From Rhizophagus irregularis (Eukaryota), in contig NC_089432.1 of the NCBI RefSeq assembly GCF_026210795.1, forward strand, positions 2,728,001 to 2,792,000: DNA of 64,000 nucleotides, in the 5' to 3' direction. Within the stretch, counting starts at the first letter, position 1. Each line of letters begins with the position of its first letter. The position numbers and the translations under genes are program-made. Of the stretch, positions 19,294 through 64,000 are shown piece after piece. Under the pieces are notes generated by a model, which saw nothing but the letters and a program-made list of their open reading frames with translations, was not told where the DNA came from and made no database searches.

Positions 19294-20572
19294 CAGTCAC
19301 GTCCGAAAGTGACGCCCGATTTAAAATTAATGCCAAAAATGGCAAAACTTTATTGATTTTCATTAAAATTCACATAAAAAATAATTACTAAAAATGGTTA
19401 ATAATGTGTTGGCCCTCCCCTTGCTTCTAGTACTGCATTTATTCTTTGTGGCATTGAAGCAACAACCTCTTCAAAAATGGAGCAATCCAAATTTTCCCAT
19501 TCTTCACTTAGTGCAACTTTAAGTTCATCCACAGTTCTTGGAAAGACTTTACAACTCTGGATATTGTCCTTTAACTGCTTCCAGATGTTTTCTATTGGAT
19601 TTAGATCGGGAGAATTTGCCGGCCAATCAATAACCACAATTTTATTCTTCTTCAACCAATCCTTGGTTATTTTCGCGGTATGTATGGGTGCATTATCCTG
19701 TTGAAAAATTGCAGCCCTTCCTGTTAACTCATGAACTGTATGCTGAAATGGATACAGATATGAATTTAGGATTCTAATGTAAGTATTTGAATTGATTTTT
19801 TCATTTCCTTCTTTATTTTCATCACAAAAAATTAATGGCCCTTTTATCCCTCCTGCAAAACATCCCCAAACCATGACTGATTTTCGACCACTTTTAAAGA
19901 TAGGTGTCAAGCATTCAGTGTTAAACCTTTCCCCTGTGTGTCTCCAAACTCTTATTTGTCGTGACTGCTTGCCAATCTCAACACTTGATTCATCTGAGAA
20001 AATAACTTGTGCCCAATCATAAGCTGTTTTTTCTTTATATTTCTCACACCAACTAATACGAGCTAATGCATGCTTTTCTGAGATAAAGGGTTTTTTTGCA
20101 GCAACATGGGAATAAATTCCAACACTATGTAATGCTCTTTTAGCAGTTGTAAGGCTGCAATTTAAATCTAATGTATTAATGACTTCATGTAAAGGTTCGC
20201 GTCAATCTTGTGTAACTTTGTTTATGAGTGCATTTTTCTCATTATTATTGAGAGCAGGTGGACGCCCCGATCTAGGTAAATTTTCAGTTTTCCCTGTCTT
20301 CTTATAATTCTTCTTATTGTGGTGGGGTCACGACCCATTTTTCTTGCTATTTGTGCAGGGTTAAAATTCTCCATATATGCTAGTATTTTTCCTTTATCTT
20401 GAGAAGTTAACTCAGTTCTATGTGACATTATTTTTTTAACTTTGCAACGCGTTTATTAGGTTATGAAATTGTGAGAAAAACATTTAAAAATAAAAAAAAG
20501 GGGGTATAAATAATGTAAATTTTGTGTATCGTAACACCATACAAAATCGGGCGTCACTTTCGGACCCGACTG
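19294..20572 (-). mobile_element. Tc1 (DD34E) transposon, 1279 bp, with disrupted transposase
   Basis: 29-bp TIRs CAGTC(AC/GG)GTCCGAAAGTGACGCCCGATTT (2 mismatches), TA on both sides. Confidence 0.95.
19398..20428 (-). pseudogene. Tc1 transposase pseudogene
   Basis: HTH-like N-terminus, GRPP, FSDES, QQDNAPIH-34aa-E (SPDLNPIE). Frameshift near 20305 and in-frame TGA at 20204-20202. Confidence 0.9.
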
Positions 20573-22516: not shown

Positions 22517-23838
22517 CAGTTCACGACATAAATATTCGGAATTTTATCACAATATGTAAAAATATAATAAAGTTTATTTTTTTCATTTCAAATTTATTGT
22601 ATTTATAGTTTAAAATGCGCAGATAAACATACGTCAAAAATCAGTAATTTATCGTGTAACCATTTTTTTCTATGACCATGTTAATCCGATCTGACATGCT
22701 ATCTGCTAAATTAAAGAAAACGTTTTGATCAATGTTATCCCATTCCTGCTGAATTATGCCCTGAAAATCATCTCCACTAAGTGATTTTTTTTTCATAATC
22801 CAATTATTGACCCTTTTTTCTACATTCCCTTTGAGAATCGCCCATAGATTCTCGATAGGATTCAGGTCAGGTGAGTTAGCAGGCCAATCAATAACTGAAA
22901 CATCGTTAATCACAAAAAATTGATGGGTAAGCTTTGCAGTGTGTGTAGGTGCGTTGTCTTGCTGAAATTTCCATCCATAACCAGCATGATAAGCATTAGG
23001 AAGTAGTTGGGATTGAAGAATTTCACGGTATTTTGCAGAATTCATGTTTCCTGTAAAAAGTGCAACTCCAATTGGTCCCTGACGGCAAAATGCACCCCAA
23101 ACATGCACTTTGTATGGATGCTTTACCATAGGATGTGATGGACGTGGATTGCCAGCCTTGTAACGCACAATTTGAGTATTACGGAATGTCTGAAATGTAC
23201 TTTCATCTGAAAAAATTGTGTGAGACCAGTCATCTTGGGTATGGTTTAAGGCCCATTGAAGACGAGTTTCAACATGACTTGCCTTAAGAAGGGGAACTGA
23301 TCGTGGCCTACAAACAATATAATTAAGTTTATTTTTGAGAGTACGTTGAACAGTTCGGGTTGATACATTAAGGTCTGGATATAAATTATTCAGCTTTGTA
23401 GTCATTAGAGCTGAAGTTGTAGCATTATCATTTTTAAGAAGACGGCCAAGATATCGACGTTTTTTGGGAGAAAGAACAAGAGGACGACCAGGAATGGGTA
23501 AGTGCTTAACACTTCCTGTTTTTTTTAGACGGTTGACAATATCATATACTGTAGACTTAGGAAAACCAGTTATTTTAATTATTTCGGAGGGTTTTCGTAT
23601 GTTATTGTCCCATAATTCCTTTATGGTTAACCGTTGCATTTCAAATTCCGAAGTGGGCGCCATGAATTTGTTTTGCCACTAATAAAACAATCAGGTGAGA
23701 ATTTTTGTGTTTATATATATATTCTAAAGGGGCTGGTGAATTTCCATTTTAGTTATTATTTTGATTGCACAAGACCTGGTGTGACAGCGCCCCTTTATGC
23801 ACAAAATCAAAAATTCTGGATATTTATGTCGTGAACTG
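22517..23838 (-). mobile_element. Intact Tc1 (DD34E) transposon, 1322 bp
   Basis: 29-bp TIRs CAGTTCACGACATAAATAT(TCG/CCA)GAATTTT with TA target duplication. Confidence 0.97.
22641..23663 (-). CDS. Tc1-family DD34E transposase, 340 aa
   Basis: Uninterrupted ORF with HTH, GRP, FSDES, VWG and QQDNAPTH-34aa-E. Confidence 0.96.
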   Translation of the reverse strand: MAPTSEFEMQRLTIKELWDNNIRKPSEIIKITGFPKSTVYDIVNRLKKTGSVKHLPIPGRPLVLSPKKRRYLGRLLKNDNATTSALMTTKLNNLYPDLNVSTRTVQRTLKNKLNYIVCRPRSVPLLKASHVETRLQWALNHTQDDWSHTIFSDESTFQTFRNTQIVRYKAGNPRPSHPMVKHPYKVHVWGAFCRQGPIGVALFTGNMNSAKYREILQSQLLPNAYHAGYGWKFQQDNAPTHTAKLTHQFFVINDVSVIDWPANSPDLNPIENLWAILKGNVEKRVNNWIMKKKSLSGDDFQGIIQQEWDNIDQNVFFNLADSMSDRINMVIEKNGYTINY

Positions 23839-29196: not shown

Positions 29197-29636
29197 TTAA
29201 GGCTTACAAGTTACTTGATCAAATTTCCAATCATCAACACTGCCTGTTATAACAAAACAGGCACCCGCATTAAAAGGTCCCCGTATTTTCTTTTTCTCGA
29301 AACTACCTAAAACTTTAGCATAAACCGTGTACGTTTCATCTGGAAACGTAAGGTATTGATGGAAATTCGGGCCATAGTTATCGTAACTACAATCACTGTA
29401 GTGTTTGCTACCGGCTATGCGGTAACCATTTGAATCCTCTACCCAAATTCTACAACTGCAGAGAGTCAAAGCCAATTCCGTGTCGGTACTATATGCTATA
29501 AATTAAACCAAAAAGTTGAATCATTAGAAAAGAGAATGGAGAACATATTATTAAATGTAAGGACTTTACCTTTAATGTCCATTATATAGAAACACATGAA
29601 AATGACAGTAAGAAGGTAAAAGCTTTGAAATTTCAT
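29197..29636 (-). CDS. Small secreted cysteine-containing protein (121 aa), candidate effector
   Basis: Exon 1 29636-29570 (MKFQSFYLLTVIFMCFYIMDIK, signal-peptide-like), phase-1 GT-AG intron 29569-29496, exon 2 29495-29197 in frame with the 92-aa ORF. Five Cys in the mature part. Confidence 0.85.
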
Positions 29637-33995: not shown

Positions 33996-35540
33996 TCATC
34001 CTTGTAAATAATCAATAAGATTACTATTTACAGAACGATTAGTTTCGTCAGATATACTTAAATAATAAAAATTTCGAACTTCAACATTATGTAACTTAAA
34101 TTCCTTTACTATATCTTCCGAATCATACAAATCTCCATTATTAATGCTTCTGATAGCTAAATACTTGACTCTTTTTTCATTCATAATAAATTCCTTTGTA
34201 TAACTTAAAATATCATCCCAACCTATTTGCCTTATTAATAATTTATTAATAAAAGTATTTTGGGAATTTTGTAAGAATATTCTAAATTCACTTCTCTTAA
34301 TACTAAGCGTCAGACTTAAATATTCTAATTTAGAAGGGAGAGCTTGACCTAAATTTTGTAATATGGTTGAACTACCTTTAATATTATCATAATCATCTGT
34401 CCTAATATCAATTGAAAGATAATTAAGATTTTGTCTAATAATATTTTCGATTATATTGAAAATTCGATAAGTAATAATCTGACTTTCATATCCATTAAAT
34501 TCAAGAAATTTGAGATTTTTACAATATTTTATAATTAATTCTGAATATCGTTCAAATCCAAATTTACACCCAAAATTTTCTAAATAACTTCCAGATTTTT
34601 GTAATACTAATTCCATTGATTGGATTGACATTAAACCATCCGTAAATAAAGATTTTAATATAAATGGTTTAGTTAATTTATTAATTTGTAGAGAAAAATT
34701 CTCATCTAAAGAATAACAATAAATAATATGAACAGATTCCAAAACATTTAATTGTTTGAATATGTCACTAACAAAATGCATCAAATTGGCTCGATAGAAT
34801 GTAATTGTTTTTAAGGTATTTGAACAATTAAAATCTTTTAATAATAATAATGAGTGGTCTGATTTAAATCTAATATATCCTGTTAATAAAAATTTTTTTG
34901 GATTTTGATGTGATTTAATTAATAATTGTAACATATAATCATTAGAAGAATTACACCCATTAACCCAATCATGTCCAAGATATTTTAGATTTCTAATATT
35001 ATGAATGAAATTTGGATTTTTTAAAATTAATTTAACAATATCACCATAAATTGTGCTACTATAAGGATTGTAAATCTCAATTTCAAGGGTATGTAATTTT
35101 ATTTCATTTTCGATAAACATTTTAAATAATGATGTACATATATCATTCAATATTTTATGTCTAATTTCGAAGGTTGAAGTTTTAATAACAACTTTAAGCC
35201 ACTTTTCAAAAGATAAAATAAACTTACGTATATTCAAATATTTTAAAAACATAAAATAATTGAAGAATGTATTTGAAGGTAATGAATTATTAATAATATT
35301 ATATTCTTTTAGTTGTGTTTTAATATCATCATTTAAATATTGTAAGTAAATTTCTAAATAATTATAGTTTCTGATACAGATTGAAAATGGGTTTTCCCAT
35401 AATAATGGAGCAGCTAAACGACACCATAATCTGTTAACTAAAACGCATGAATATAAAGTTGAAAAATCATTATGAAAATATTTTATAACTTCATATGTTA
35501 ATTCTGGTAAATCTCCTAAAAATATTTTTGAACATGACAT
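33996..35540 (-). CDS. F-box-like / LRR-like protein 1 (514 aa, intronless)
   Basis: N-terminal LPELTYEVIKYF..TLYSCVLVNRLWCRLA.PLLW F-box-like motif followed by LxxLxL-type repeats. Confidence 0.88.
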   Translation of the reverse strand: MSCSKIFLGDLPELTYEVIKYFHNDFSTLYSCVLVNRLWCRLAAPLLWENPFSICIRNYNYLEIYLQYLNDDIKTQLKEYNIINNSLPSNTFFNYFMFLKYLNIRKFILSFEKWLKVVIKTSTFEIRHKILNDICTSLFKMFIENEIKLHTLEIEIYNPYSSTIYGDIVKLILKNPNFIHNIRNLKYLGHDWVNGCNSSNDYMLQLLIKSHQNPKKFLLTGYIRFKSDHSLLLLKDFNCSNTLKTITFYRANLMHFVSDIFKQLNVLESVHIIYCYSLDENFSLQINKLTKPFILKSLFTDGLMSIQSMELVLQKSGSYLENFGCKFGFERYSELIIKYCKNLKFLEFNGYESQIITYRIFNIIENIIRQNLNYLSIDIRTDDYDNIKGSSTILQNLGQALPSKLEYLSLTLSIKRSEFRIFLQNSQNTFINKLLIRQIGWDDILSYTKEFIMNEKRVKYLAIRSINNGDLYDSEDIVKEFKLHNVEVRNFYYLSISDETNRSVNSNLIDYLQG

Positions 35541-35625
35541 ATTGTAAAACGAAAGAAGGGAGAGAGAGGTAATCGTGTATCACATTTACATATTGTGTAA
35601 ATATAACTTTCGGAATGATGATCCT

Positions 35626-40059: not shown

Positions 40060-41640
40060 TTAAATAACTTCCTTCATAAAATCATCCATGTTAATCGCTA
40101 AACCATAATAACTTTTCACTTTAATATCATACAACATAAATTCCTTCACTTCGTCTTCCAATGAAAACAATTCATCACTAACGAATTCAGATCTAAATAA
40201 AGCACCATTAATAGCCAAATACTTAACCCTTCTCTTTTTCATGATATATGTTTTTATAGAGGGTAAAATATCTTGACCTTTAGTAATGTTACTTATCAAT
40301 AATTTCTTAGTAAATGTATCTTGAGAACTTTTTAGAAATACTTCAAAATCATATGCTTTAATATAATAAAGATACAAATGTAAATATTCTAATTTTAAAG
40401 GAATGATTTTTCCTAATTTTTGTAATATAATTGAATTATGTCCATTATTATCATGTATACTAATTGTAAGATAATTAAGATTATGTTTAATATTTTCAAT
40501 TAAATTGAGTGCTGGATAAATAATCGGATTATCATTTATATTCAGATCAAGAAATTTGATATTTTTACAATGTTTCACAATTAATTCAAATAATTGTCTC
40601 ATTGCCTGAGGGATCTGAATTAGTCCAGGTGGATAAATAAGTCCGCAATCATACCCAAAATTTTCTAAATAATCACAAGACTTTTGTATTAATAATTGTA
40701 GAGAATCAATTTCTGATATCGCTCCTAACTCTTGTACAAATAAAGATTTTAATTTAAGCGGTTTAGTTAAATTAATAACTTGTTGAGAAAAACCAGTATT
40801 TAAAGAATTACAATTAATTAAATGAACGGATTCTAAAACATTTAATTGTTCAAATATTCTATTTAAATTGATTATACCTTCAAAATCAACGTAATAGAAA
40901 ATAATTGTACTTAAGGTGTTTGAACAATTATAATCTTTTGATAATAATAATGATTGATATGAAAAAAAACTATCATGATCCAATGAAACTTTCTTAAGAT
41001 TTTGATGTAACTTAATTATTGGTAATATACGATTATTAAGTAATTTATTTTCTTTATAATAACCAATATAAAAGTTTAAATTTTTAATATTATTGTGAAT
41101 GAAATTTGTATTCTGTAAAATTAACTCAAGAATATCATCATAATTTATACCAAAAGAAGTATGTTTTATGTCAATTTCAAGAACATCTAAATTTACTTCA
41201 TTTTCAATAAAAAGTTTCACTAATGATACACATATATCAGATGCCAATCTTATAAAATCAGATACGAGGTCTGAATCTCCAATAGCAGCTTCAAGCCAAT
41301 TTATAATAGAAAAAATAAGCTTATTTATATTCAAATATTTTAAAAAACCATAATAATTGAAAAGTGTATTTGAAGGTAATGAATTATTAATAATATTATA
41401 CTCTTTTAATTTTGTTTTAAAATCATCATTTAAATATTGTAAGTAAATTTCAATATAATTATCATAGTTTTCAGTACGAACCGAAAAAGGATTTTCCCAT
41501 AATAATTGAGTTGCTAAACGACACCATAATCTGTTGACTAAAATACATGAATACAAAGTTAAAATATCATTTTGAAAATATTTTATAACTTCATAAGTTA
41601 ATTCGGGCAAATCCCCTGAAAATATTTTTGAACATGACAT
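40060..41640 (-). CDS. F-box-like / LRR-like protein 2 (526 aa)
   Basis: Full-length paralog of 33996-35540 with the same N-terminal motif. Confidence 0.88.
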   Translation of the reverse strand: MSCSKIFSGDLPELTYEVIKYFQNDILTLYSCILVNRLWCRLATQLLWENPFSVRTENYDNYIEIYLQYLNDDFKTKLKEYNIINNSLPSNTLFNYYGFLKYLNINKLIFSIINWLEAAIGDSDLVSDFIRLASDICVSLVKLFIENEVNLDVLEIDIKHTSFGINYDDILELILQNTNFIHNNIKNLNFYIGYYKENKLLNNRILPIIKLHQNLKKVSLDHDSFFSYQSLLLSKDYNCSNTLSTIIFYYVDFEGIINLNRIFEQLNVLESVHLINCNSLNTGFSQQVINLTKPLKLKSLFVQELGAISEIDSLQLLIQKSCDYLENFGYDCGLIYPPGLIQIPQAMRQLFELIVKHCKNIKFLDLNINDNPIIYPALNLIENIKHNLNYLTISIHDNNGHNSIILQKLGKIIPLKLEYLHLYLYYIKAYDFEVFLKSSQDTFTKKLLISNITKGQDILPSIKTYIMKKRRVKYLAINGALFRSEFVSDELFSLEDEVKEFMLYDIKVKSYYGLAINMDDFMKEVI

Positions 41641-42788
41641 ATTGTAAAATTAAAAGAGAAAAGAGGGGTATTTGTGTATCACATTTTACTACGAATAAAT
41701 TTAAAGTTTCGGAAAATGGTGATTCCGATATTGTCGCACAATTAATATTGTGTAACATCACTAACGTCAATCACTACTTAATTCCGGTCAAACTTACCCA
41801 CTCGTGAAATTGATGCCGATCATGCAATATTGACCAAAATTTTTTAAGCCGTAATAAACTTTTTAATTTCTAATATTTTTTCTTTTATCAAAATTTTTTA
41901 ATGCTTAGGTTAATATTTCCTCAAGGGGAGCAGTGCTTTAGTCAATGCTTAGGTTAATAGGCATCCTATTATATATAATTTATAATAATGAAGTTTATAT
42001 AATAAATACAACTGTTAAAATCTTGAAATCACAACTTTTTTGAACCACAAAAAGTTACAAAAAACATATTAAAGAAAATTAGACATCTCAGTTAAGTTTC
42101 CATAATGAAAGATTATTTGTTTTATTATTTATGCTTTTTTTTTAATGAAATCTGTCTAATAATTACATTTTCTATTACATTAGATATTTTATTATAAATT
42201 ATTAAAATACTTATTTGGTTATTAAATAAGATAGCATTAGAAAAATAGAAGAAATTATGTAGTTGTGTTATAATTTTATATATAAATATTATTATGAATG
42301 ATTATAATTAAAGTTAAAGATCACTTCTTTATTGCTTCATTTATTCAGGCTATGTTTAATTTTTCATAAATTATTCAAAGTTCTATTTAAAAAATCCTAC
42401 TTTTACATTCCCATTTCATAAATCTGTACATCCAGCATTACATTCAATATGATATTAAGATATTTTATGATAGAAACACTATTACAACAATGCTTAAACT
42501 TCTTTTTTTCTTACATGCTGCATCCTCTTTTTAATTTCTTCTCCTTTTTGCTACTTGTTTGATAATTTTTTTTTCTAGTAAATAATACAGAAAACAAGGA
42601 CAAACCAAATTATTGTATCACCAAATAAAGAAAGAATTCAGATTTTTGAATTGATAAAAACAATGATAATCTCAATAACAAATGAATGAATGTTTTATTT
42701 GTGTAGGTAAAATTATAAGCAACTTTATTATTAAATAAAAGAATATTCCTGCCTGATATATTTTATTAATACTATTGCTAAACAATTA

Positions 42789-44363
42789 TTAATAAACTTC
42801 CTTTATAAAATTAAGTTTATTTATCACTAAACTATGATAACTTTGTACTATAACATCATTCAGCTTAAATTCCTTCGTTTCATCTTTCAATGAAAACGAT
42901 ATCTTATCATACATATTATAAATAACATCAATAGCCAAATACTTAACCCTTCTCTTTTTAAAGAGATATTTTTTTATAGTGGGTAAAATATCTTTTTGAT
43001 TATAAATGCTACGGATCAATAATTTTTTAATAAAAGTATCTTGAGAATTTTTTAGAAATACCTCAATATCACATTCTCTAATCCAATTAAGATACAAATG
43101 TAAATATTCTAATTTAGAAGGAATGGTTTGTCCTAAATTTTGTAATAAAATTGAACTACATTCAATATTATTTATAGTGATTGAAAGATAATTAAGATTT
43201 TGTTTAATATTTTCAATTAAATTGAATTCTTGATAGATCTTCTGCTGATTATCATCTATAATCAGATTAAGAAATTTGATATTTTTGCAACATGTTATAA
43301 TTAATCCTAATATTTGTTGTTCTAATAGTGAATCATAAATTTCATATTTAGAACCACCATACCCAAAATTTTCTAAATAATCACATGATTTTTGTATTAA
43401 TAATTTTAATGATTCAATTTCTGATTCTGATATCTCCCGTATAGACAAAGATTTTAGTTTAAATGGTTTAGTTAAATTAATAATTTGTTGAGCAAAATAA
43501 TTATTTAAAGATAAACAATCAATGATATGAACGGATTTTAAACCATTTAATTGGTCAAATATTCTATTTAAATTGGTTATATAATTAAAATTAATGCAAT
43601 AGAAAATGATTGTATTTAAAGTATTTGAACAATTATATAAATCTTCTGATGATAATAATTCTTGATATAAATGAAGATTATCATGACCTAATAAAATTTT
43701 CTTAAGGTTTTGATGTAAATTAATTATTTGTAATATACGATATTTAGTCAATGCAAATTCGCGACTATAATCTACAATACTTTCAATAAAAAAGTTTAAA
43801 TTTCTAATATTGTGGATGAAATTTGTATTTTGTAAAATTAATTCAAGAATATCATTAAGACATGGGTAATAACAATTATTATTAATAAAGTCTATTTCAA
43901 TTTCGAGGGTATATAAATTTACTTCATTTTCAATAAAAATTCTAAATAGTGATATACAAATCAATCTTTTAAAATCCAAATCCAATACACTATTTTCAGA
44001 TTTTGAAGCTTTAATATTAAAAGCATCATACCATTCTTGAACAGAGATTATAAGCTTATGTATATTCAAGTATTTTAAAAAACTAGGATAATTAAATAGT
44101 GTTTTCGAAGATAATGAATTATTAATAATATTATATTCTTTTAATTTTGTTTTAAAATCATCATTTGAAAATTGTAAATAAATTTCAATAAAATTATAGT
44201 TTTCAGTACGGATTGAAAAAGGATTTTCCCATAATAATGGAGTTGCTAGATGACACCAGAATCTGTTAACTAAGATGCATGAATATAAAGTTGAATAATC
44301 ATTCTGAAGATATTTTGTAACTTCAATAGTTAATTCAGGTAAAAATCTTTTTGAACATGACAT
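42789..44363 (-). CDS. F-box-like / LRR-like protein 3 (524 aa)
   Basis: Paralog; its 3' flank (~42400-42790) resembles that of gene 2 (~39580-40060). Confidence 0.87.
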   Translation of the reverse strand: MSCSKRFLPELTIEVTKYLQNDYSTLYSCILVNRFWCHLATPLLWENPFSIRTENYNFIEIYLQFSNDDFKTKLKEYNIINNSLSSKTLFNYPSFLKYLNIHKLIISVQEWYDAFNIKASKSENSVLDLDFKRLICISLFRIFIENEVNLYTLEIEIDFINNNCYYPCLNDILELILQNTNFIHNIRNLNFFIESIVDYSREFALTKYRILQIINLHQNLKKILLGHDNLHLYQELLSSEDLYNCSNTLNTIIFYCINFNYITNLNRIFDQLNGLKSVHIIDCLSLNNYFAQQIINLTKPFKLKSLSIREISESEIESLKLLIQKSCDYLENFGYGGSKYEIYDSLLEQQILGLIITCCKNIKFLNLIIDDNQQKIYQEFNLIENIKQNLNYLSITINNIECSSILLQNLGQTIPSKLEYLHLYLNWIRECDIEVFLKNSQDTFIKKLLIRSIYNQKDILPTIKKYLFKKRRVKYLAIDVIYNMYDKISFSLKDETKEFKLNDVIVQSYHSLVINKLNFIKEVY

Positions 44364-44427
44364 GTTGGGCCGGGAATGTCAAATTTTTTATACAAAGTAA
44401 AATTGGCATACTTATATACAGATATTT

Positions 44428-44545: not shown

Positions 44546-46245
44546 TAAGTTTCTATATACAAGTTTCCATATACAAGTTTCATATATATACTTCATATAT
44601 GGTCCCGTAATTATAAATACATAAGATATTTGTTAATCAAGTCAAACACTTACTTAGGGTTATCAGAAACAAATATATGTGTAAAGTATTTTTAAGTAAA
44701 TTACAGTTTCAGGGGTATTATTAGTTTTCCGACCGATTAAACCATGTAGCTTGTATATTATAGGTTTACCCGTTTATATAAATAAACCTTTATATAAAAT
44801 AAACCATTCATATACGTACTAGTTAATTTACCAAATATATAAAATATAATAAGAAAAATCAATATTGCGTTATTTAATATATGGAATGGTGAACTTCCGG
44901 CAACACAAATAATGGATTGAATAAACTATTATCAAATAATACATACCGCATTGCGGTTCATGAGGGTAATGATAGAATATTTATATTTGTTTATTTAATG
45001 TTAGACTTATTTATTTTTATATTTAGTATTTTCATTAGTTTCATAGACTATCGCGTTAAAATAAATTAAACTTGATTAAAATTCCTTCTTATTAACAAAG
45101 CTAATAATTATTTTGTAATTTCCATATATTATCGAATACAATAAACATCAATCATTATAATGTTTAAAAAAATTTAGTCCCGATATCAAAAGTCAATTAC
45201 ATCTGTGAAGTTTTATTCATTAATAGTTATTTTAATATGTATATTTATGGTTAAGTATAGTCGTTTTTGATATCCATCCAACAATTTGAGTGAAAAGAAT
45301 TATGATGAATATTTTGGTTGGGATGACTATTAAAAAAATGATGAAATGTTAAATTGTATATCGTGAGGAAATTGATAAAATGAAAAATAAAATGACAATA
45401 ATCGGAAATTATCAACATATTTTATTATTGTGATTTTTTCATACTAAAAAATTTTTATAAGGTCATGATTTGATTGTTTATTTTTTGGAAATTCGTGAAG
45501 CCACACGTTGAATTTGCTTATTTATCTTATTTAAAAACCTTGCGTAGAGCTAGCTATTATAAAATTTTTGACACCTTACATATAAATTTGCTCAGAGTCC
45601 TGATATACCATATATTTTTAAAATTCCATCAGAAATTATTAAAGTTATTATAATTATCAATTGAATATGTTTTAACCTAAAGGTTAATTATAATATTTAA
45701 GAAAAGTGTTCAAATAGTTAAATATTTATATCATTTAGAAAATTACTGAAAATATTCTGAGAATTATTTAAACATTTTAAAGCCATTGATTCATTTAATT
45801 GTACTGTATATCTTTATGATCAACTAATTTTTAATTGCATTTCTTGAATTAATCTATCAATTTGTTTATTATTACTGGTCCAGTTTGTAAAATTTCATTT
45901 AAATAAAACTATTTTACATCATTTATATCCTGCATGATTTATTAATAAATAGTAATTACAAAATTTGACGTTCAATTAAAAATTTAAAAGTATTAAAACA
46001 TATTGTTATTTTTCAAAATTCATATAATCAAATATTTAAACATTAGTAAAATTAATTATATGTGCTAATAAACTAAAAAGTAACGTCAGAGTATATGTTC
46101 AAGAAAGAAAAAATTTATAAATCGATTTATGCTTATCTTGTGGATCGTAATAAGACGTAAAGAAAGGGGCTTATAAGAAAAAGACCTAAGACCTAGACAG
46201 AGAGAGATAGACCTAAAAAAAAGATGACGAAAAAAAATAAAATGA

Positions 46246-46525
46246 AACACCACATACACAAACCCACACACAAACCCACACTCTCACAACACGCCCACAC
46301 TCCCACACCCAACCACACTCCCACACCCACCCGCACACCCAACCCACACACCCAACCCACACTCCCACACTCCCACACTCCCAACCCACAAACCCACACA
46401 CATTCCCACACTCCCACACGCCCACACTCACACTCCCAACCCGCACTCCCAACCCACACTCCCACACACGCCCACACTCCCACTCCCAACCCGCACTCCC
46501 AACCCACACTCCCAAACCCACATAC
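46246..46525. repeat. C/A-rich simple repeat (CCCACA/CACTCC units)
   Basis: Low-complexity tract directly visible. Confidence 0.95.
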
Positions 46526-47984
46526 CTAAAGAGATGTGAAGAAAAAGGGCCTAAAAGAAGATAGACAGAGAGAAGATAAACCTAAAAAAAAGATGACGAA
46601 AAAGATGACGAAAAAAAGTTGACGAAACGAAAGAAAAAAAGATGACGAAGCGAATAAAAAGATGACGAAACGAAAAAAAAGGATGACAAAATGAAAAAAA
46701 AGGGGTCTAAGAAGACCTAATAAGAGAAAAGATGAAATAAATATGATAAAACCACACACAAACTCCTACACTATAAAGGAAGATGTAAAGAAAAGGGCCT
46801 ACAAGATAGAAGACCTAATAAAGAGAAGCCTAGGCAGAGAGAAGATAGACCTTGAAAAAAAAAGACGATGAAGTATATATTGTGTATATATAATATTGTT
46901 AGTTGACAAAAAAAAAATAAATACTTTTTCGAATAAACAGTGAATAATAATAAGATAGGGAGTATAGTATCTTGCATAATACAATTGTTTTGCAATACAA
47001 TTGTTTTGACAATACAATTGTTTGACAATATGACAATATGAGTAATTTTTTCATGGTTATGACTAATAGATGGATATATCTGCGTCTGATCTATTCCAGT
47101 TTGGTTGGCTCGTGAAGATTTTTGTGGCTAATACAGGAAAGCTTGATCAGATTTTTTTTTTGTTATGATGCTAGTTTATTCGGGTGATGTGATCAGCCGC
47201 AGTATATCGTGTTGCCGCTTACCTTTTTTTTATTATTTTTTTTAATTCAGTTTTTTTTTTCAAAACCAGAAAATATTTTTTTTTCTATTTTTGGTCCTCG
47301 AAAAAAAAATTTTTTTTAATTACTAGTTAATATATTTTAAAAGCGTAGTTAGGAATTTTCTAAGTCACGTGACTGGTCGTTATTTACCGTGACATAATTC
47401 AATTTCGCATGACGTTTTAATAATAAATTTATTAATAAAAAAAGTAATTATGTAAATAAAATCTGGACGGATTATTTAAGAGTAATAGCGTGTATAAATT
47501 GGTAGTTTTAAATTTCAATAAAAATGAAGTCTTTTCTATTTGAAGCAGTCCTTGATCAATGGCAAATGATGGGCCAACAGATCTCCGAATTCTCTATCGT
47601 ACATTCAGAATATGAGATAAGCCGGCTGTGATATATGGCATTTTTATTTTGCGAATTATCAAGATTCGTTTCTTTTGGCTCATGACTCATTTCCATAAAA
47701 AATTCCGAAATAGGTTTGTAACGAAGTCACATTTTTCGCACTCAGTCAAATGTGGTCTATCGTATGACCGAAAAATTTTGTAATAATAATTCAACAAATA
47801 CTCATGATAAAAACTCATGAGAATTTTTCATGCAAATCATATTAATCATTTCTTTCGCATAAATTTTTAACTAATAAATTAATTTTTTTACTTATTTTTT
47901 ATTCATTATAATCCACTGATGAAGAGTCTATTTTATTATTAGTCATGGTGAATCTGGAAAGATTTTTACAAGTATATATATACC

Positions 47985-52258: not shown

Positions 52259-52922
52259 AGTAGTATTTTATATGAAGTATATAAAGTTGATACTGAATTT
52301 CATAAAAAATTTTTTGTCACAATAAAATTTTTAGAATATTGTTAAATTATTAATCAGAAGTATAAATATTGATAAGATTTTTTAAACGCGTTAATGGTTA
52401 TTCTTTTTTTGTGGAAATAAAATTAATCTCTTTCGTACAAAAAATTTATTTATATGAAGATTGTAGACTGATAATATTGTAATTATAGGCTTATATGATC
52501 TTTTATTTTGATCACCCAAATTAGTCATTGTAGCTTAAAGATTTTGAGCTTCTTCGTCATATTAATTATAATTCCTTAATTTCAAAAATGAAGAGTTAAA
52601 ATAAAATTATTAAAAATTCATTTTGTTAATTATTTCACGCAGACAATTAAAAAATTGGAAGTTAAAAACACCCGATCATCAAAAGTTTGATGACCTAACT
52701 TAAATTAGAAGTAAAATGATCGACGGTTACCTTTGGCGTTCAGTGATACCATATTTTTTTTAAAAAAACAAAAATATTTATAAATATTTATAAATAGACA
52801 AAAAAAAAAATTATTTATAAATATGTAAATAGTTGAAACAAAAAAAAATATTTCCTATTTTTTTTCAATTTTCGAAAAGCAAAATTTAAATTCCGCAGTA
52901 ATAATTTTTTTCGTACCCAACA

Positions 52923-54985
52923 ATGTCTTATAACACCGAACTTGTTAGCAATTTAAATGATTGGAATAAATGGATTGAAGAAGCGATTTCTAAAAAACTT
53001 ATTAAGTATTATGAGTATGACCAATTTTATAATATTCAAGAAATTGGTTCCGGTGGTTTTGGAAAAGTTTGTCGTGCTAATTGGAAGAATTCTCATAAGC
53101 GTTATGCAATAAAATCTTTTTTTAATATTAATGATGCTACAGTCAAAGCATTAGTTCGTGAGGTAAATTATAATGTCGAACATTTTTCATTATTATTATA
53201 AATATTTAAGTTTTTTAATATTTATTAACTAGATTCAACTTCAACGTGAAGTTGATTTTCATGATAATGTTATTCATTTTTATGGCGTCACAACTTCCAT
53301 TAAGGGTATGATATATTCTAATATTATTTATTTCATATAATAATTAATTGATTAATAAAAATTTTTTTTTTTAAAGAAAACCAAATAAAAGAATATTCGT
53401 TAGTGTTAGAATATGCGGAAAATGGTACCCTCCGAAAATATTTGAAGGAAAATTTTGAAAATCTAACTTGGGACAAGAAATATAATCTCGCATTTCAATT
53501 GGTTTATGCAGTATCATGTTTGCATGATGAAGGGATCGTGCACCGTGATTTGGTAGATATTTTACAATTTATTATGTGTTATATTTTTAATGATTCTCTT
53601 ATTTTAACGTTAATTTAATATTGATAGCACTCCAATAACGTGTTAGTCCATCAGAATACTATTAAGCTAGCAGATTTTGGCTTATCAAAAAGAATTGAGG
53701 AAACATCTAACTCTCATTCGAGAACATTTGGATTAATTCCTTACACTGATCCAAAAAGCTTTAATAGTAGTACAACAGAATTATATTTATTAAATAAGAA
53801 AAGTGATGTTTATAGCATTGGAGTATTGCTATGGGAGATATCTAGTGGTCAGCCTCCTTTTCAAGGTAGACCGCATGATGTTGGTTTGGCTCTAGGTATT
53901 TTACAAGGCCTCAGAGAGACACCTATTCCCAATACGTCTATAGATTATATAAAAATTTATACCGGTAAATACAATTTAACTATGACTTATAAACAATGTT
54001 GTTTAATTACTAATTAATGACGTTCTTTTTTGTAGATTGTTGGAATATTGAACCTGATAATCGTCCAACTATTAATCAAGTAGTTGATGAATTAAAAGTA
54101 CTTATAATAAAAGAAAACATAAATATAAAGGATTTTCATTTATATGATGATCACAAACTACCTGATTTAGATGTTAAAATTTCTGAAAGTACTAATTCAT
54201 TAAATGTAGAATTATCTCAACTTATTCAAAATTTTAATGTAATGAATACAAAAGAAATAGAACCTTCAATATCATCAATTAACCAATTTGATGATAACTT
54301 TAATATAATAGTTAATAATGTGTTCAATTTTTTTGTTAATTTTAATGATAATGTAGGAAAACAAAAGACCTTAAGTTATCTTAATGAACAAAATATAACT
54401 TTGCAAGAGATTAATAATTTATTATTGAATGATCAAAATAACTCAAATTCTATTTACTTACTTGGAAAATTTAATGAATTAGGAATTGGGATTAGTGTTA
54501 ATAAGCAAAAAGCATTTAAGTTATATCAAAAAGCAGCAGATTTAGGAAATGTATTAGGAATACATGATTTAGGGTATTGTTATAAAAATGGAATTGGAAC
54601 TTATATTGATACGAAAAAAGCATTTGAATTATATCAAAAGGCTGCAGATTTAGGACATGCAACTGGAATTAGTAATTTAGGACTTTGTTATTGCAAGGGA
54701 ATTGGAATTGATACTGATAAGAAAAAAGGATTTGAATTATATCAAAAGGCAGCAGATTTAGGAAATTCATTTGGAATAAATAATTTAGGTAATTGTTATA
54801 AATATGGAATTGAAACTGATATTGATGAGAAAAAAGCATTTGAATTATATCAAAAGGCAGCAGATTTAGGAAATTCATTTGGAATAATTAATTTAGGTAA
54901 TTGTTATGCATATGGAATTGGAACTGATATTGATAAGAAAAAAGCACTTGAATTATTCCAAAAATTTGCAGATTTAAAGAAGTAA
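52923..54985 (+). CDS. TKL kinase-Sel1 repeat protein D (~591 aa, 5 exons), canonical motifs
   Basis: Exons 52923-53162, 53233-53305, 53377-53552, 53628-53964, 54036-54985. Motifs GSGGFG, AIK, HRDLHSNN, ADFG, SDVYS; five Sel1 repeats but no terminal AIYxYEKSA repeat. Confidence 0.92.
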
Positions 54986-58637: not shown

Positions 58638-59839
58638 CTGCAATAAATATTACATAAATTTGGAATAAGAATTTTTTTGAAGGCCGATGTATTTTTATTT
58701 AATTAAACATTTTCTGAATTTAGGTCATGTAATTAACTATTTTTGTGGTAAAATAAAGCGTTAGAAGCCAAATTAGCGAAGCGCATAGAATTATTCGTCT
58801 AGTTTTTTTTCAGGTTTATTTACACATAAGAGATTTATAATTGAAAATATATTATTCAAATATCTAATAATACATTATAAAATTTTGATATTTTATGTGC
58901 TGCTAAAATTATTTTAGTTTGTTGAGAATTGTCAAGTTTCGGTGACAATGTGGTATATACCGTAAAATCCTTTGAGGTACCATTTTTTTCAAATGTTAGA
59001 AATAATTTAGTTGTCATAAAAAATGGTTTGCCGTTGTCTTTAAAATGTCAGTAAATTCTAGTTTTAATTACAATAAACACAGAATAGATCAGGCGCAGAC
59101 ATGCCACGTATTTCCATGTTACACAATTCAAATCAATGATAAATGATAAGCGCTATATTAAGAATTGACAGTGTAAAGCGTATCTTTTTTTCCTTGTGAA
59201 AAAACAAAATGAGTTCTGCCTATAGCTCCAAAATGTCAATAACTTTCCAAATTCGATGCTAGAAGCAAAATTCAATATGGAAAAGGTAGTTCGTCAAAGT
59301 ACTTTTGACAAATTACGTATTGAAATGATTAAATTGTCCAATAACCTTTTATTTTTTAATGATTATGTGGCTGTGAATGATCAGATAAAAGAAATAGGTC
59401 ATACTTTCCTTATTTATTTATTTATTTATTCTTTTAAAAAAATAGAAATCATCTGTTTCCGCATTATTAATTCAAAGTGGCACTGTTTGTTCCGATTGTG
59501 GCGCAATGTAAAAAAAAACGTGGCAAGAATACTCTCATGCGTCTCTTTTGTTTCACCCTCGTTAATAAAACAACAATTTTGCAAATGATTACGGCTAAAA
59601 AATAATTATTAACATCAAAATCTCGCATTTCCTCATGAATTTTAACATAGCCATGGCACAATATAGAAAAACGTGGCAAAATACTCTTGTACGCCTCCTT
59701 TACTTCGCTCGCCTTTAAATAATTTGGAATATATGTTATTATAAAAAAATTTTCTTATATAAATACTTTGAGAAAGTAGAGAGAAATTTCTTTAAACGCA
59801 TTAATAAATAACGAATTAAAAATTATATATAACGCAATA

Positions 59840-60171
59840 ATGAAATTCAAATACTTTTTGTTGATTTTCGTCATTACCATTGTTTTAGCGGGTAAATAAA
59901 TCATCATCTTACTTTATTAATATTAAAGAATCTTTTAATGAAAATTTGATAATTTAAATTCATTATTGACTCAGACGCAGCACCGTTTAATTATAAACGG
60001 GACGCAGACGCAGCACCGGCAGTTGCATTTAAACGAGACGCAGACGCAGCACCGGGGGTTGGATTTAAACGGGACGCAGACGCAGCACCGGTTGAATATA
60101 AACGGGACGCAGACGCAGCACCAACTTTAGACGCTCCAATACCCCCAATCGGGGGCGGACCGCCAACATGA
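59840..60171 (+). CDS. Secreted Kex2-processed repeat peptide precursor (KEP; alpha-factor-like architecture), 82 aa
   Basis: Exon 1 59840-59891, intron 59892-59974 (alternative in-frame AG at 59980), exon 2 59975-60171. Protein: MKFKYFLLIFVITIVLA-DAAPFNY-KR-DADAAPAVAF-KR-DADAAPGVGF-KR-DADAAPVEY-KR-DADAAPTLDAPIPPIGGGPPT*. TATATAAA at 59756. Confidence 0.88.
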
Positions 60172-62163
60172 TGCGGATGCAGCAACAATTATAAACACAT
60201 ATTAATCGTGATGCAGATACAGAATAATTATTATTTGCTATATTTACTAGATATACAGTATAATATATTGATTTCAACAATAATATGTATATTTTGATTA
60301 TCGACAAATAAAATCTCATGTTTACTTACTAATTACTAGTTGCTAGTAGTGTATTTTTTACTCTTTTTTTTTTAATGATATTATCATGTCTGGATTGTCT
60401 TCGTTTTTCCTATTGTTCAGAATTCAAAATAACAGGGAAAAAATAATGGACCTACTTTCCCTATACAAAATTTTATACAAAAACTCCATAAAAATGAGCC
60501 TTTTACGTGGAATATAGAAAATAGATCGACTTTTTATATTATGATTCTATTTTCAAATATATATAAGAATTTTCATATTTGAAGTTTATTAAGCGAAATA
60601 TTTAAATAATTATAGGGGAATTTTTTTTTTTTTTTTTTTGATAAAATAATAATATTTTTTTTTCTTTAAATTAGAATTACGAAAATTTTTTTAAAAAATT
60701 GTAGAAAATTATTTGATGAAATCACCTTAAAGTTTATTCATGTTCATATCAAAAACGTTTTGTTAGCCATAATAATTATTGATTTCACATGCTTTTTCGC
60801 AAAATATTTTGAAAACCGCACAAAATAGTTGCGCCACAATTCTTTATTCGTCGCTTAGTAAAACTAAAAATATAACATATTTTAAATAATATTGTCAAGT
60901 TTCAGTAAACTTTATAATAAAATAAACTCTATATTACAATTTACTTTCAATTAAATCATGCTTTCTTTTACAGACACTACAATGTAAACTTGCATAAGAG
61001 TTCATTATAATTACTAGGTTAAATTTTAAGCCATCGTGCCTCATTCAACGGATAGATTGATTATCAGGTAAATATTGTAATATTGTACTTATTAAACTCT
61101 TCATTGAAGTACGATGTAATCATATTAACGTAACATAATACGAACATCATTTCCTGATAGATACTGCACATTACTTTGACAATAATACTAGCTTTATTTA
61201 AATAATAATTTAACATTTGTAAATAGAACAAATTTTGTATCTTCTTTCTTAATATATAGTAAGTAAATTATGACAGAATGATGCAGGTTAATGAAATTTA
61301 CAAAACAGGCCCTAAAAGCCAAAATTTTTACGCTCTTTAATTATGCCGTAAGGCCAAAGGAATTATGTCTCTTCTTAGTTACTAAGTTCAGTTGTGAAGC
61401 AGTTAAAAACTATACAATAGCGTTTAAGCGATAAACATATGACAGATTTTTTCATATAAAAAATATGATAATTTTTAGATGCTTAAATCTAACAACAGCA
61501 ACTTCATAGTTATAATTAATTTTTATGAACTGTTCTTACAAGGTTACGAGTAAATATTTCAGATTTAAAATCTTATCAATATATCGAAGCTTGATTATTT
61601 CCTATCAAATGGTAGGTAGGTCGGTATTTAAGAAAAATTCAATAAAGAGAATTCCACTTCAAGAAATTATATATATTCCTTCAATAAATTATTACCTATA
61701 TTGAAAATTTTGTATACAAGAAAAAATTCGATAATGCACTTTATATGATACCAAATATAGTTTTTAATGATATTTTACCATAAATATTTGAAAATTTGAA
61801 AATTTTACAATAAATGTGATTTCTAATTACATTACGACGAATTTAATTTTTCCAATATTGAGGAAATTAGTTATTTGACACATTTTTTAACAAATTTGCA
61901 TATCATTTATAACTTATAGGGCGAAGCATGGTTTTGCTTAAATTCACAAAATGAACATCTGTTACATCTTAAGGTAAATGCTATTCATGATCCCCCACTT
62001 TTATTAATACCCTGTAATAAATCATCGTTTGTTAATTTTATTGCGCTATTCGTTTTAAAAAAAGCTCGACTAGGGAGAAATTCTTGGAATCAAAAATATT
62101 TAGTTTATTTTCATAATAAATACATGTATTCTTTAATATTTCATTTTATGTGTTTACTACTAA

Positions 62164-63714
62164 TTAATTTCCTTTTATAAAATCACTTGTACGAATCACT
62201 AAGCTAGAATAACTTTGCACTTTAATATTATACAACCCAAATTCTTTCACTTCATTGTTAAATGAAGATAAATCACTACTATGACCTCTAAGATCATATA
62301 ATGGAGTTATAAAGAAAGATAAATACTCAACTCTTTTCTTTTTTAAGATATATTTTTTTATAGAAGGTAAAATATCTTGACCTTCAATACTATAGATTAA
62401 TAATTTCTTAATAAAAGTATTTTGAGAATTTTTTAGAAATACTTCAAAATCAATTATTTTAATATGATGAAGAAATAAATGTAAATATTCTAATTTATAA
62501 GGAATATGTTGACCTAAATTTTGTAATATAATTGAACTACATCCATTACTGTCATATGATGTACTGATTGAAAGATGATTAAGATTTTGTTTAATACTTT
62601 CAATTAAATATAATACTGGATAAATAATTTGATCATCATTTCCAATTAAGTCAAGATATTTGATATTTTTACAATATTTTATAATTAATTCTAATATTTT
62701 TTGTTTTGATGATGAATTAGGTATAAATCCAAATTCATACCCAAAATTTTCTAAATAATCACCGAATTTTTGTAATAATAATTGTAATGATTCAATTTGT
62801 AATAATTCGTTTATAAATAAAGATTTCAATTTAAATGATTTAGTTAAATTAATAATTTGTTTAGTAAAATCATTATTTAAAGAAGTACATTTAATGATAT
62901 GAACTGATTCTAAAACATTTAGTCGTTCAAAAATTCTATTTAAATTGGTTATACTGTTAAAATCAACACAATAAAAAATGATTGTATTTAAAGTATTTGA
63001 ACAATTATAATCTTTTGATAATAATAATGATTGATATAAAGGAAAATTATTATGACGTAAGAAAATTCTTTTAAGATTTTGATGTAAATTAATTATTTGA
63101 AATATATAATCATTATTGTCGTTTTTGAGAACACCTGAAGTATTAATATAAAGGTTTAAATTTCTAATATTGTGAATGAAATTTATACTTTTTAAAATTA
63201 ACCCAAGTATAGTATTAAGACACGGGTAATAATAATTACCTGAGATCTCAATTTCAAGAGTATGTAAATTTACTTCATTTTCAATAAAAATTTTAAATAA
63301 TGATATATTAATCAATTTTCTAATATCAGATGCTCTATATTCGGGGTTTAAAGGTTTAATAGCAGTTTCAACCCACTTTTCAACAGAGATAATAAACTTA
63401 AATGTATTCAAATATTTTAAAAACTTGAGATAATTGAACAGGGTATTCGAAGGTAATGAATTATTAATAATTTTACATTCATTTAATTCCGTCTTAATAT
63501 CATCAGTTATATTATGTAAGTAAATTTCAATAAAATTATAGTTTCCGGTACGTGATGAAAAAGGATTTTCCCACAATAATGGGATCGCTAAACGACACCA
63601 TAATCTGTTGATTAAAGTGCACGAATATAAAGTTGAATGATCATTTTGAAAATATTTTATAACTCCATAAGTTAATTCAGGTAAATCTCCTGAAAATATT
63701 TTTGAACATGTCAT
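62164..63714 (-). CDS. F-box-like / LRR-like protein 4 (516 aa)
   Basis: Full-length paralog with the same N-terminal motif. Confidence 0.88.
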   Translation of the reverse strand: MTCSKIFSGDLPELTYGVIKYFQNDHSTLYSCTLINRLWCRLAIPLLWENPFSSRTGNYNFIEIYLHNITDDIKTELNECKIINNSLPSNTLFNYLKFLKYLNTFKFIISVEKWVETAIKPLNPEYRASDIRKLINISLFKIFIENEVNLHTLEIEISGNYYYPCLNTILGLILKSINFIHNIRNLNLYINTSGVLKNDNNDYIFQIINLHQNLKRIFLRHNNFPLYQSLLLSKDYNCSNTLNTIIFYCVDFNSITNLNRIFERLNVLESVHIIKCTSLNNDFTKQIINLTKSFKLKSLFINELLQIESLQLLLQKFGDYLENFGYEFGFIPNSSSKQKILELIIKYCKNIKYLDLIGNDDQIIYPVLYLIESIKQNLNHLSISTSYDSNGCSSIILQNLGQHIPYKLEYLHLFLHHIKIIDFEVFLKNSQNTFIKKLLIYSIEGQDILPSIKKYILKKKRVEYLSFFITPLYDLRGHSSDLSSFNNEVKEFGLYNIKVQSYSSLVIRTSDFIKGN

Positions 63715-64000
63715 ATTTGTAAATTTTTGAAAGTGAAAAAAGGGGAGTTAACAAATTTTTATTTTGTCGAATTGGGTAAATTATATCGATTTTTTGCCGA
63801 TATTGTCGCACAATTACGCCAATTAATCATGTGTCACAGTGTTACTCTGTTACATGTTTTAATGATTTAGCGCAATTTTAAACTAATGAAATCTAATTAT
63901 GGCAAAGATATACATAGTAAAGATATGCATATTATTCAAGTTTTAAATATTCCGAGTACTCAATGCGTTCAAGATTTATTTGTTTCAATTTCATGTAAGT

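What the first reader, a model, noticed from the sequence alone, without database searches (positions are those of the whole stretch)
59840..60171. Hidden alpha-pheromone-like multi-peptide precursor (signal peptide plus KR-DADAAP repeats)
Seen: an 82-aa spliced gene absent from the ORF track, with a 17-aa hydrophobic leader and five modules separated by four KR sites. The spacer DADAAP is invariant after every KR, while the cores all differ (FNY, AVAF, GVGF, VEY, long tail); the four short cores end in an aromatic residue. Established: ascomycete alpha-factor precursors are cut after KR by Kex2, trimmed by Kex1, and lose X-A/X-P dipeptides to Ste13; similar KEPs yield other fungal peptides. 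Inference: DA-DA-AP is fully removable, releasing a cocktail of distinct 3-4-mer peptides (or AP-extended forms). Unlike true pheromones the cores are non-identical, so this may be an undescribed peptide signal or RiPP-like system in a fungus with no observed sexual cycle.
Basis: partly seen in the sequence, partly recalled or inferred. Interest (0 to 1): 0.88.

Follow-up and report, generated by a model that had tools for sequence, protein, structure and literature searches.

The report
Mycorrhizal fungus short-peptide cocktail precursor
This is a real, spliced gene of a root-symbiotic fungus whose small product is predicted to be secreted and cut into several different 3-4-residue peptides that likely act as signals; it belongs to a precursor class already described in this fungus, though nobody seems to have studied this gene or detected its peptides.

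Summary
The gene runs from ATG 59840 to stop 60171, and the 83-nt intron (59892-59974) is bridged in RNA contigs from 4 of 4 runs laid, from four studies. The 82-aa product is identical to an annotated hypothetical protein of Rhizophagus irregularis (GLOIN_2v1638073, EXX66621.1), so the gene is not hidden. It belongs to a Glomeraceae family sharing its leader and KR-DADAx[AP] spacer (31 of 32 profile hits at E<=1e-3). The kind is in print. Kamel 2017 lists paralogues, some with mixed cores. Le Marquer 2019 reports STE13-signature KEX2-processed repeat proteins (KEPs) in R. irregularis and raises hormone and RiPP roles. Non-identical cores are usual in the family (11 of 13). The RiPP reading is unsupported: no tailoring gene lies nearby, and DUF3328 is reported absent from Mucoromycota. 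I did not find this gene in the KEP lists I could read. Best reading: Kex2/Kex1/Ste13 release of linear FNY, AVAF, GVGF, VEY and a 15-aa tail as diffusible signals. Processing is inferred and no receptor is known. Verdict: new member of a known kind, interest 0.3.

The parts
59840..59891 (+). Exon 1 coding part: first 17 codons plus one base; hydrophobic leader shared by the family (predicted signal peptide, likely 19 aa with the first residues of exon 2)
   Evidence: 11-residue hydropathy peak 3.47; cut site by analogy with Kamel 2017 paralogues
59892..59974 (+). 83-nt phase-1 GT..AG intron; its last bases plus the exon 2 start match the repeat unit at 16-17 of 18 nt
   Evidence: junction in 4 of 4 RNA runs
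59975..60171 (+). Exon 2 coding part to the TGA stop
59986..59994 (+). Predicted core 1, FNY
59995..60018 (+). KR + DADAAP spacer 1; holds the in-frame AG at 60007 that gives the annotated 71-aa form EXX66622.1
60019..60030 (+). Predicted core 2, AVAF
60031..60054 (+). KR + DADAAP spacer 2
60055..60066 (+). Predicted core 3, GVGF
60067..60090 (+). KR + DADAAP spacer 3
60091..60099 (+). Predicted core 4, VEY (VVY in allele P0001)
60100..60123 (+). KR + DADAAP spacer 4
60124..60168 (+). Predicted 15-aa Pro/Gly-rich tail peptide, unlike the tails of the other 25 family proteins examined; no CLE pattern
59803..59839 (+). 5' untranslated part, at least this long (5'-most base of an RNA contig); TATAAA at 59740 and 59758
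60172..60317 (+). 3' untranslated part, at least this long; AATAAA at 60307
59102..59678 (.). Three ACGTGGCA copies upstream (59102 minus, 59518 plus, 59671 plus); candidate regulatory sites, untested

Best explanation
The gene is transcribed and spliced and encodes an 82-aa precursor that is predicted to be secreted and cut by Kex2, Kex1 and Ste13-type proteases into four linear 3-4-residue peptides and a 15-residue tail, which likely act as diffusible signals of the fungus. Shown: gene structure, splicing, presence in RNA libraries (some from roots or rhizosphere), family membership. Inferred, in order: the leader directs ER entry; Kex2 cuts after each KR; Kex1 removes the KR; a Ste13-type dipeptidyl aminopeptidase strips DA-DA-AP and stops because the second residue of each core is not A or P; FNY, AVAF, GVGF, VEY and the tail leave the hypha unmodified. 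Least supported: they are ligands for fungal receptors that coordinate hyphal behaviour, rather than bulk or structural material. Odds: processing as drawn about 0.75; signalling to the fungus itself about 0.5.
For: Splicing in 4 of 4 runs. All 6 RNA holders listed are metatranscriptomic libraries, 3 labelled root or rhizosphere. In 26 family proteins, 62 of 71 dibasic sites are followed by X[A/P] and 40 of 71 are preceded by F, Y or W, against 11% aromatic background (partly circular, because the profile was built on such repeats). In this gene the cores change while the spacers do not: 5 of 9 against 2 of 24 variable nucleotide columns, Fisher p=0.009, post hoc; all amino-acid changes fall in cores. 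The two differences from allele P0001 lie in a core and the tail. R. irregularis is not among the 15 catalogues lacking KEX1, KEX2 or STE13 in Le Marquer 2019. Basidiomycete precursors of this build are processed to linear peptides, with the XA/XP motif removed (PMC9769878).
Against: No peptide, protease assay or receptor exists for this gene. Diversifying selection on cores is not shown: 7 nonsynonymous and 1 synonymous change in cores against 0 and 2 in spacers gives p=0.07; the rate test gives p=0.16. Spacer identity may partly reflect recent duplication (2 nucleotide changes in 4 x 24 nt). No orthologue outside R. irregularis was found. The mixed-core paralogues RiSP193 and RiSP260 had 0-2 reads per library in Kamel 2017. 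Knockouts of six Coprinopsis kep genes gave no phenotype. Peptides of 3-4 residues are far shorter than alpha pheromones (9-24 aa).
Confidence: 0.5

Rival explanations
1. The peptides, or mainly the Pro/Gly-rich tail, are aimed at the host root, as the KEX-framed RiCLE1 peptide is.
For: RNA holders include root and rhizosphere metatranscriptomes. YGY-repeat paralogues (RiSP357, RiSP618, RiSP734) are up-regulated in planta or by root exudates. RiCLE1 is a precedent in this species (PMC12037060).
Against: The tail does not fit the CLE pattern taken from RiCLE1p and is unlike the other 25 family tails. No Pfam or PDB match. A PIPP likeness to plant IDA peptides is recalled and was not tested.
Confidence: 0.15
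2. It is a mating or self/non-self pheromone precursor of a cryptically sexual fungus; variable cores would carry strain identity.
For: Alpha-factor-like anatomy. An allele differs in one core (VEY against VVY). Halary 2013 found a pheromone-sensing pathway but no pheromone gene. A weak Atlas lead to an MF_alpha cluster (0.80, rank 4 of 5 shown, within chance range).
Against: No MF_alpha Pfam match. Cores are short and lack Cys. The identical protein is on record for several strains. The passages read in Halary 2013 name only a STE3-type receptor. Mateus 2020 reports no up-regulated pheromone gene in co-inoculation (I did not check its gene lists for this gene). The family has many members with different cores.
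Confidence: 0.1
3. The products are structural or bulk material: hydrophobic peptides that aid hyphal aggregation or wall attachment, as proposed for Rep1 and MiSSP8.
For: Cores are hydrophobic and aromatic. MiSSP8 knock-down blocks hyphal aggregation (bioRxiv 10.1101/218131 abstract). Paralogue RiSP618 is abundant (hundreds to about 11,000 reads per library).
Against: Rep1 lacks the STE13 signature, whereas this gene has three removable dipeptides per module. Each core is present once.
Confidence: 0.1
4. It is a young, nearly neutral paralogue of an expanding family: expressed and perhaps processed, but with no specific role.
For: No orthologue outside the species. It lies among tandem kinase-Sel1, F-box-like and transposase genes. 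Selection tests are not significant.
Against: The frame is intact in all 3 cluster members. Transcripts appear in 4 studies. There is no amino-acid change in spacers or leader.
Confidence: 0.1
5. It is a dikaritin-type RiPP precursor whose Tyr-containing cores are cyclised.
For: Two of four short cores end in Tyr, and Le Marquer 2019 raised cyclisation for R. irregularis KEPs.
Against: No DUF3328, tyrosinase or other tailoring family among the 54 window frames of 85 aa or more (smaller exons not scanned). Umemura 2020 found no DUF3328 protein outside Ascomycota and Basidiomycota. The STE13 signature is absent from precursors of cyclic toxins. Two cores have no Tyr.
Confidence: 0.04

Closest known systems
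R. irregularis KEPs with STE13 signature (Kamel 2017, PMC5293756: RiSP193, RiSP260, RiSP357, RiSP618; Le Marquer 2019, PMC6339444)
   Same: Same leader family (16 of 19 identities to the two nearest paralogues), KR-D/EA-D/EA spacers, and 3-6-residue cores ending mostly in an aromatic residue. RiSP193 equals P0007, a top profile hit.
   Different: The spacer variant DADAAP occurs only in this gene among the 26 examined. Its cores and Pro/Gly tail are its own. It is absent from Kamel Table S1 and, by three accessions, from Umemura Table S2.
Ascomycete alpha-pheromone precursor (MF-alpha)
   Same: Signal peptide, KR sites, removable XA/XP dipeptides, several modules.
   Different: No pro-region, no MF_alpha Pfam match, cores of 3-4 rather than 9-24 residues, all different, no Cys. 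No link to mating has been shown.
Basidiomycete STE13-motif KEPs (Vogt 2022, PMC9769878)
   Same: Same build outside Ascomycota; short cores ending in an aromatic residue; linear products detected by mass spectrometry; function unknown.
   Different: Their detected peptides are 6-8 residues and end mostly in Trp. One such protein (Sanghuangporus, P0053) hits the profile at 2.8e-6, with a different leader.
RiCLE1 (PMC12037060) and Laccaria MiSSP8 (bioRxiv 10.1101/218131)
   Same: Mycorrhizal secreted precursors with predicted or in-vitro KEX2 sites and an effect on symbiosis.
   Different: This gene has no CLE motif and no DWRR repeat, and no function has been tested.
Dikaritin RiPP precursors (ustiloxin, phomopsin)
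   Same: Signal peptide plus KR-separated short cores.
   Different: No DUF3328 or tyrosinase gene nearby; STE13 signature present; cores do not follow the Y-x-I pattern.

Membership tests
KEP (Le Marquer 2019 definition) | N-terminal signal peptide, no membrane segment | tested here: inconclusive
   One hydrophobic stretch at the N-terminus; paralogues were called secreted in Kamel 2017. SignalP and TMHMM were not available.
KEP (Le Marquer 2019 definition) | At least four fragments on cutting at KR/RR | tested here: met
   Five fragments; definition read.
KEP (Le Marquer 2019 definition) | At least three similar fragments, covering 15% or more of the length | tested here: met
   Three internal DADAAP fragments of 9-10 aa, 33% of the length; similarity judged directly, not with FIMO.
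KEP with STE13 signature | XA/XP dipeptides after each dibasic site | tested here: met
   DA-DA-AP at 4 of 4 sites.
KEP with STE13 signature | Actual processing into peptides | not testable with these tools
   Needs mass spectrometry or a protease assay.
Glomeraceae small-KEP family (RiSP193/260/357/618 group) | Shared leader and KR-DADAx[AP] spacer | tested here: met
Ascomycete alpha-pheromone precursor | MF_alpha or MF_alpha_N domain | tested here: not met
   0 Pfam families at E<=0.1; Atlas lead at 0.80 only.
Ascomycete alpha-pheromone precursor | Near-identical repeats of 9-24 residues | tested here: not met
   Cores of 3-4 residues, all different; range.
Ascomycete alpha-pheromone precursor | Mating-type control and a Ste2-type receptor | not testable with these tools
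   No genome held; passages of Halary 2013 name STE3 only.
Dikaritin RiPP | DUF3328 or tyrosinase gene near the precursor | tested here: not met
   None in 54 window frames of 85 aa or more; the window ends 3.8 kb downstream of the gene. DUF3328 is reported absent from Mucoromycota.
Fungal CLE mimic | 12-residue CLE motif | tested here: not met
   The tail fails the pattern taken from RiCLE1p.

The most novel reading that the evidence does not exclude
Glomeraceae run a multigene library of ultrashort (3-4 residue) peptide signals: a conserved leader and spacer scaffold with fast-changing cores, read by fungal or plant receptors for hyphal self/non-self recognition or symbiosis control. In this gene every repeat carries in-frame splice acceptors, so the cocktail could be tuned by choosing the 3' splice site. 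These would be among the shortest ribosomal peptide signals known in fungi (recalled comparison) and candidates for the missing pheromones of arbuscular mycorrhizal fungi.
Probability: 0.15. Interest if true: 0.75.

Novelty: new member of a known kind. Interest (0 to 1): 0.3.

Why it matters
How arbuscular mycorrhizal fungi signal to each other and to roots is largely open. A pheromone-sensing pathway was reported without any pheromone gene (PMC3834313), and the R. irregularis KEPs were flagged in 2019 as unexplained. This gene adds an expressed member and five defined, cheaply synthesised peptides with computable masses, which makes the 2019 hypothesis easier to test. It does not open a new kind of system.

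Tried and rejected
No whole genome is held, so copy number, paralogue promoters, proteases and receptors were not searched directly. Pfam and PDB gave no match. Atlas hits were 0.80-0.85, within chance range, and its model is low confidence, pTM 0.21. I did not fold the protein. In one search, 6 of the 25 hits besides P0002 are family members by leader; the long repeat proteins match by repeat composition and were set aside. The 71-aa form (acceptor 60007) was not seen in the 4 runs laid; contigs drop rare variants, so this is no evidence of absence. A second read lay, meant to test other acceptors and a silent flank, returned no result, so that stays open. Three runs guessed to be RNA held next to none of the words, which proves nothing. 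Tests for positive selection on cores were not significant. A hydrophobic frame at 29359 has no repeat structure and was not pursued. Three look-ups of earlier scan findings returned nothing.

Full report
OBSERVATION. The sequence has an ATG at 59840, a GT donor at 59892 and an AG acceptor at 59974. Joining the exons gives 82 codons ending at TGA 60169-60171; the unspliced frame stops after 19 codons. The protein has one hydrophobic N-terminal stretch and four KR sites, each followed by DADAAP. The cores are FNY, AVAF, GVGF, VEY and a 15-aa tail. Of 24 runs listed, 20 hold the stretch and 6 of these are RNA, from 4 studies. I laid 4 of the 6, one per study. Each has a contig that skips exactly 83 nt (GT..AG) with no other letters listed, and together they cover 59803-60317. 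The motif cluster is beyond chance: 4 of the window's 5 KR(X[AP])2 motifs lie within 105 nt, while 20 shuffles gave 0-4 in 64 kb.

IDENTITY. The product equals P0003, recorded as GLOIN_2v1638073, RhiirA1_423873 and EXX66621.1 of Rhizophagus irregularis, all named hypothetical. An allele (P0001, PKK69911.1) differs at two residues, one in core 4 and one in the tail. A 71-aa record (EXX66622.1) corresponds to the in-frame acceptor at 60007 and lacks the FNY module. Every repeat carries such in-frame AGs, and the intron end plus exon start matches the repeat at 16-17 of 18 nt. Only the 59974 junction was seen in RNA. Neighbours are kinase-Sel1, F-box-like and DDE transposase frames; none of 54 frames of 85 aa or more matched a tailoring enzyme.

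FAMILY. An 11-sequence profile returned 37 proteins at E<=1 among 7,994 scored candidates of 26-146 aa. Of the 32 at E<=1e-3, 26 are R. irregularis clusters (alleles of several strains, so fewer loci), 2 R. diaphanus, 3 Glomus cerebriforme and 1 a basidiomycete. One RNA run also held a paralogous transcript that leaves the window sequence at the same junction (tables 7 and 8). I analysed 26 proteins with an intact family leader. Left out were the allele, the isoform, five without an intact leader (P0036, P0046, P0050, P0051, P0056) and six outside the named Glomeraceae. In these 26, 62 of 71 dibasic sites are followed by X[A/P], 40 of 71 are preceded by an aromatic residue, and 11 of 13 proteins with two or more internal cores have all cores different. 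These counts are partly circular, because the profile selects such repeats. Mixed cores are therefore normal for the family. No orthologue of this gene was found outside R. irregularis; longer proteins were covered only.

EVOLUTION OF THE REPEATS. The four spacers differ by two synonymous changes. The cores differ at 5 of 9 aligned columns against 2 of 24 in spacers (p=0.009, post hoc). On a minimal tree the cores show 7 nonsynonymous and 1 synonymous change; tests for positive selection give p=0.07 and p=0.16. This fits a fixed processing scaffold with free or diversifying products. It does not prove selection, and recent duplication explains part of the spacer identity.

LITERATURE. Le Marquer 2019 (PMC6339444; passages, sections 18 and 24, supplement search) counts 12 KEPs in R. 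irregularis. It says most carry STE13 signatures nearly identical to yeast, notes Tyr-rich peptides and cryptic sex, and proposes hormone, effector or cyclised products. Its Table S2 is only a pointer to a website I could not see, so this gene may be listed there. Kamel 2017 (PMC5293756; passages, section 12, table rows) prints paralogues RiSP193, 260, 357, 618 and 734. The YGY-repeat ones are up-regulated in planta or by exudates, whereas RiSP193 and RiSP260 had 0-2 reads per library; this gene had no hit in its five supplementary files. Umemura 2020 (PMC7329392; passages, Table S2 rows) does not list EXX66621, EXX66622 or PKK69911 although those strains have entries; I lacked the accessions for the other assemblies. 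It says KEPs often hold several repeat types and finds no DUF3328 outside Dikarya. Vogt 2022 (PMC9769878; passages) shows processing of such precursors to linear peptides and no phenotype for six kep knockouts. Halary 2013 (PMC3834313; passages) found STE3 and the signalling cascade but no pheromone gene. Mateus 2020 (PMC7490403; passages) saw no pheromone gene induced in co-inoculation. MiSSP8 (abstract), RiCLE1 (passages) and RiPho4 (PMC9895418; passages) were read for comparison; PMC6960344 was seen only as a listing. Searches for the gene identifiers and motifs in main texts returned 0 papers. Topic searches turned up no functional study of this family, judged from the listings and the papers read. 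The library lacks most subscription journals.

MECHANISM. Shown: gene, splicing, presence in RNA libraries, family. Inferred from the established alpha-factor pathway: ER entry, Kex2 cleavage after KR, Kex1 trimming, and Ste13-type removal of DA-DA-AP. The proteases are inferred to be present from Le Marquer Table S1b, not searched here. The products would be four linear 3-4-mers and a 15-mer. I favour a diffusible signal to the fungus itself (0.5), because three removable dipeptides per module imply that an exact N-terminus matters. Rivals: host-directed peptide (0.15), mating pheromone (0.1), structural peptide (0.1), near-neutral paralogue (0.1), RiPP (0.04). The aromatic residue before KR could reflect product function or protease preference; I cannot separate these.

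VERDICT. It works like an alpha-factor precursor but fails the membership tests for alpha pheromone, dikaritin and CLE mimic. It meets the sequence criteria for a KEP with STE13 signature, a class already reported in this species. It is a new, unstudied member of a known kind whose function is open. Interest 0.3; the most novel reading has probability 0.15 and would merit 0.75.

Noticed in passing
window 59102-59109, 59518-59525, 59671-59678: ACGTGGCA occurs three times within 740 nt upstream of the ATG and four times in the window (0.21 expected; motif picked post hoc). Only 2 of 85 other 750-nt bins show any such triple, one of them a simple repeat. Two copies contain CACGTT on the minus strand, a reported RiPho4 site, though CACGTG/T occurs 24 times in the window. 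The two near copies lie 153 nt apart in a short direct repeat. A likeness to bZIP G-box sites is recalled. Possible phosphate or secretory-stress control.
   Followed up: partly
window 59974-60130: 13 of the 14 AG dinucleotides downstream of the donor, up to 60130, keep the reading frame, so any alternative acceptor would drop modules without a frameshift; one such form is annotated (EXX66622.1).
   Followed up: partly
run X18, records 3 and 4: Two contigs match only the leader exon with 3-5 other letters; one continues into a different KR-repeat exon at the same junction, so paralogues are expressed in the same sample.
   Followed up: no
window 5730-26689 (minus) and 52905-54982 (plus): Four multi-exon kinase plus Sel1-repeat genes, three in tandem on the minus strand, interrupted by two DDE/Tc1-type transposase frames (19401-20201, 22644-23678).
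   Followed up: no
window 33999-35579, 40063-41649, 42792-44378, 62167-63747 (minus): Four paralogous single-frame proteins of about 527 aa with a weak F-box-like N-terminus, below the Pfam cut-off.
   Followed up: no
proteins P0030/P0044 and P0025/P0047: Family members carry adjacent locus tags (OCT59_009345/009346; C1645_818222/818223), which suggests tandem clusters elsewhere; no second leader copy was found in this window.
   Followed up: no
proteins P0007 and P0035: Two small family members are named 'kinase-like domain-containing protein' in NCBI records, apparently a misannotation.
   Followed up: no
window about 46200-46600: A GC-rich, strand-biased simple-repeat stretch gives long open frames on both strands.
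   Followed up: no
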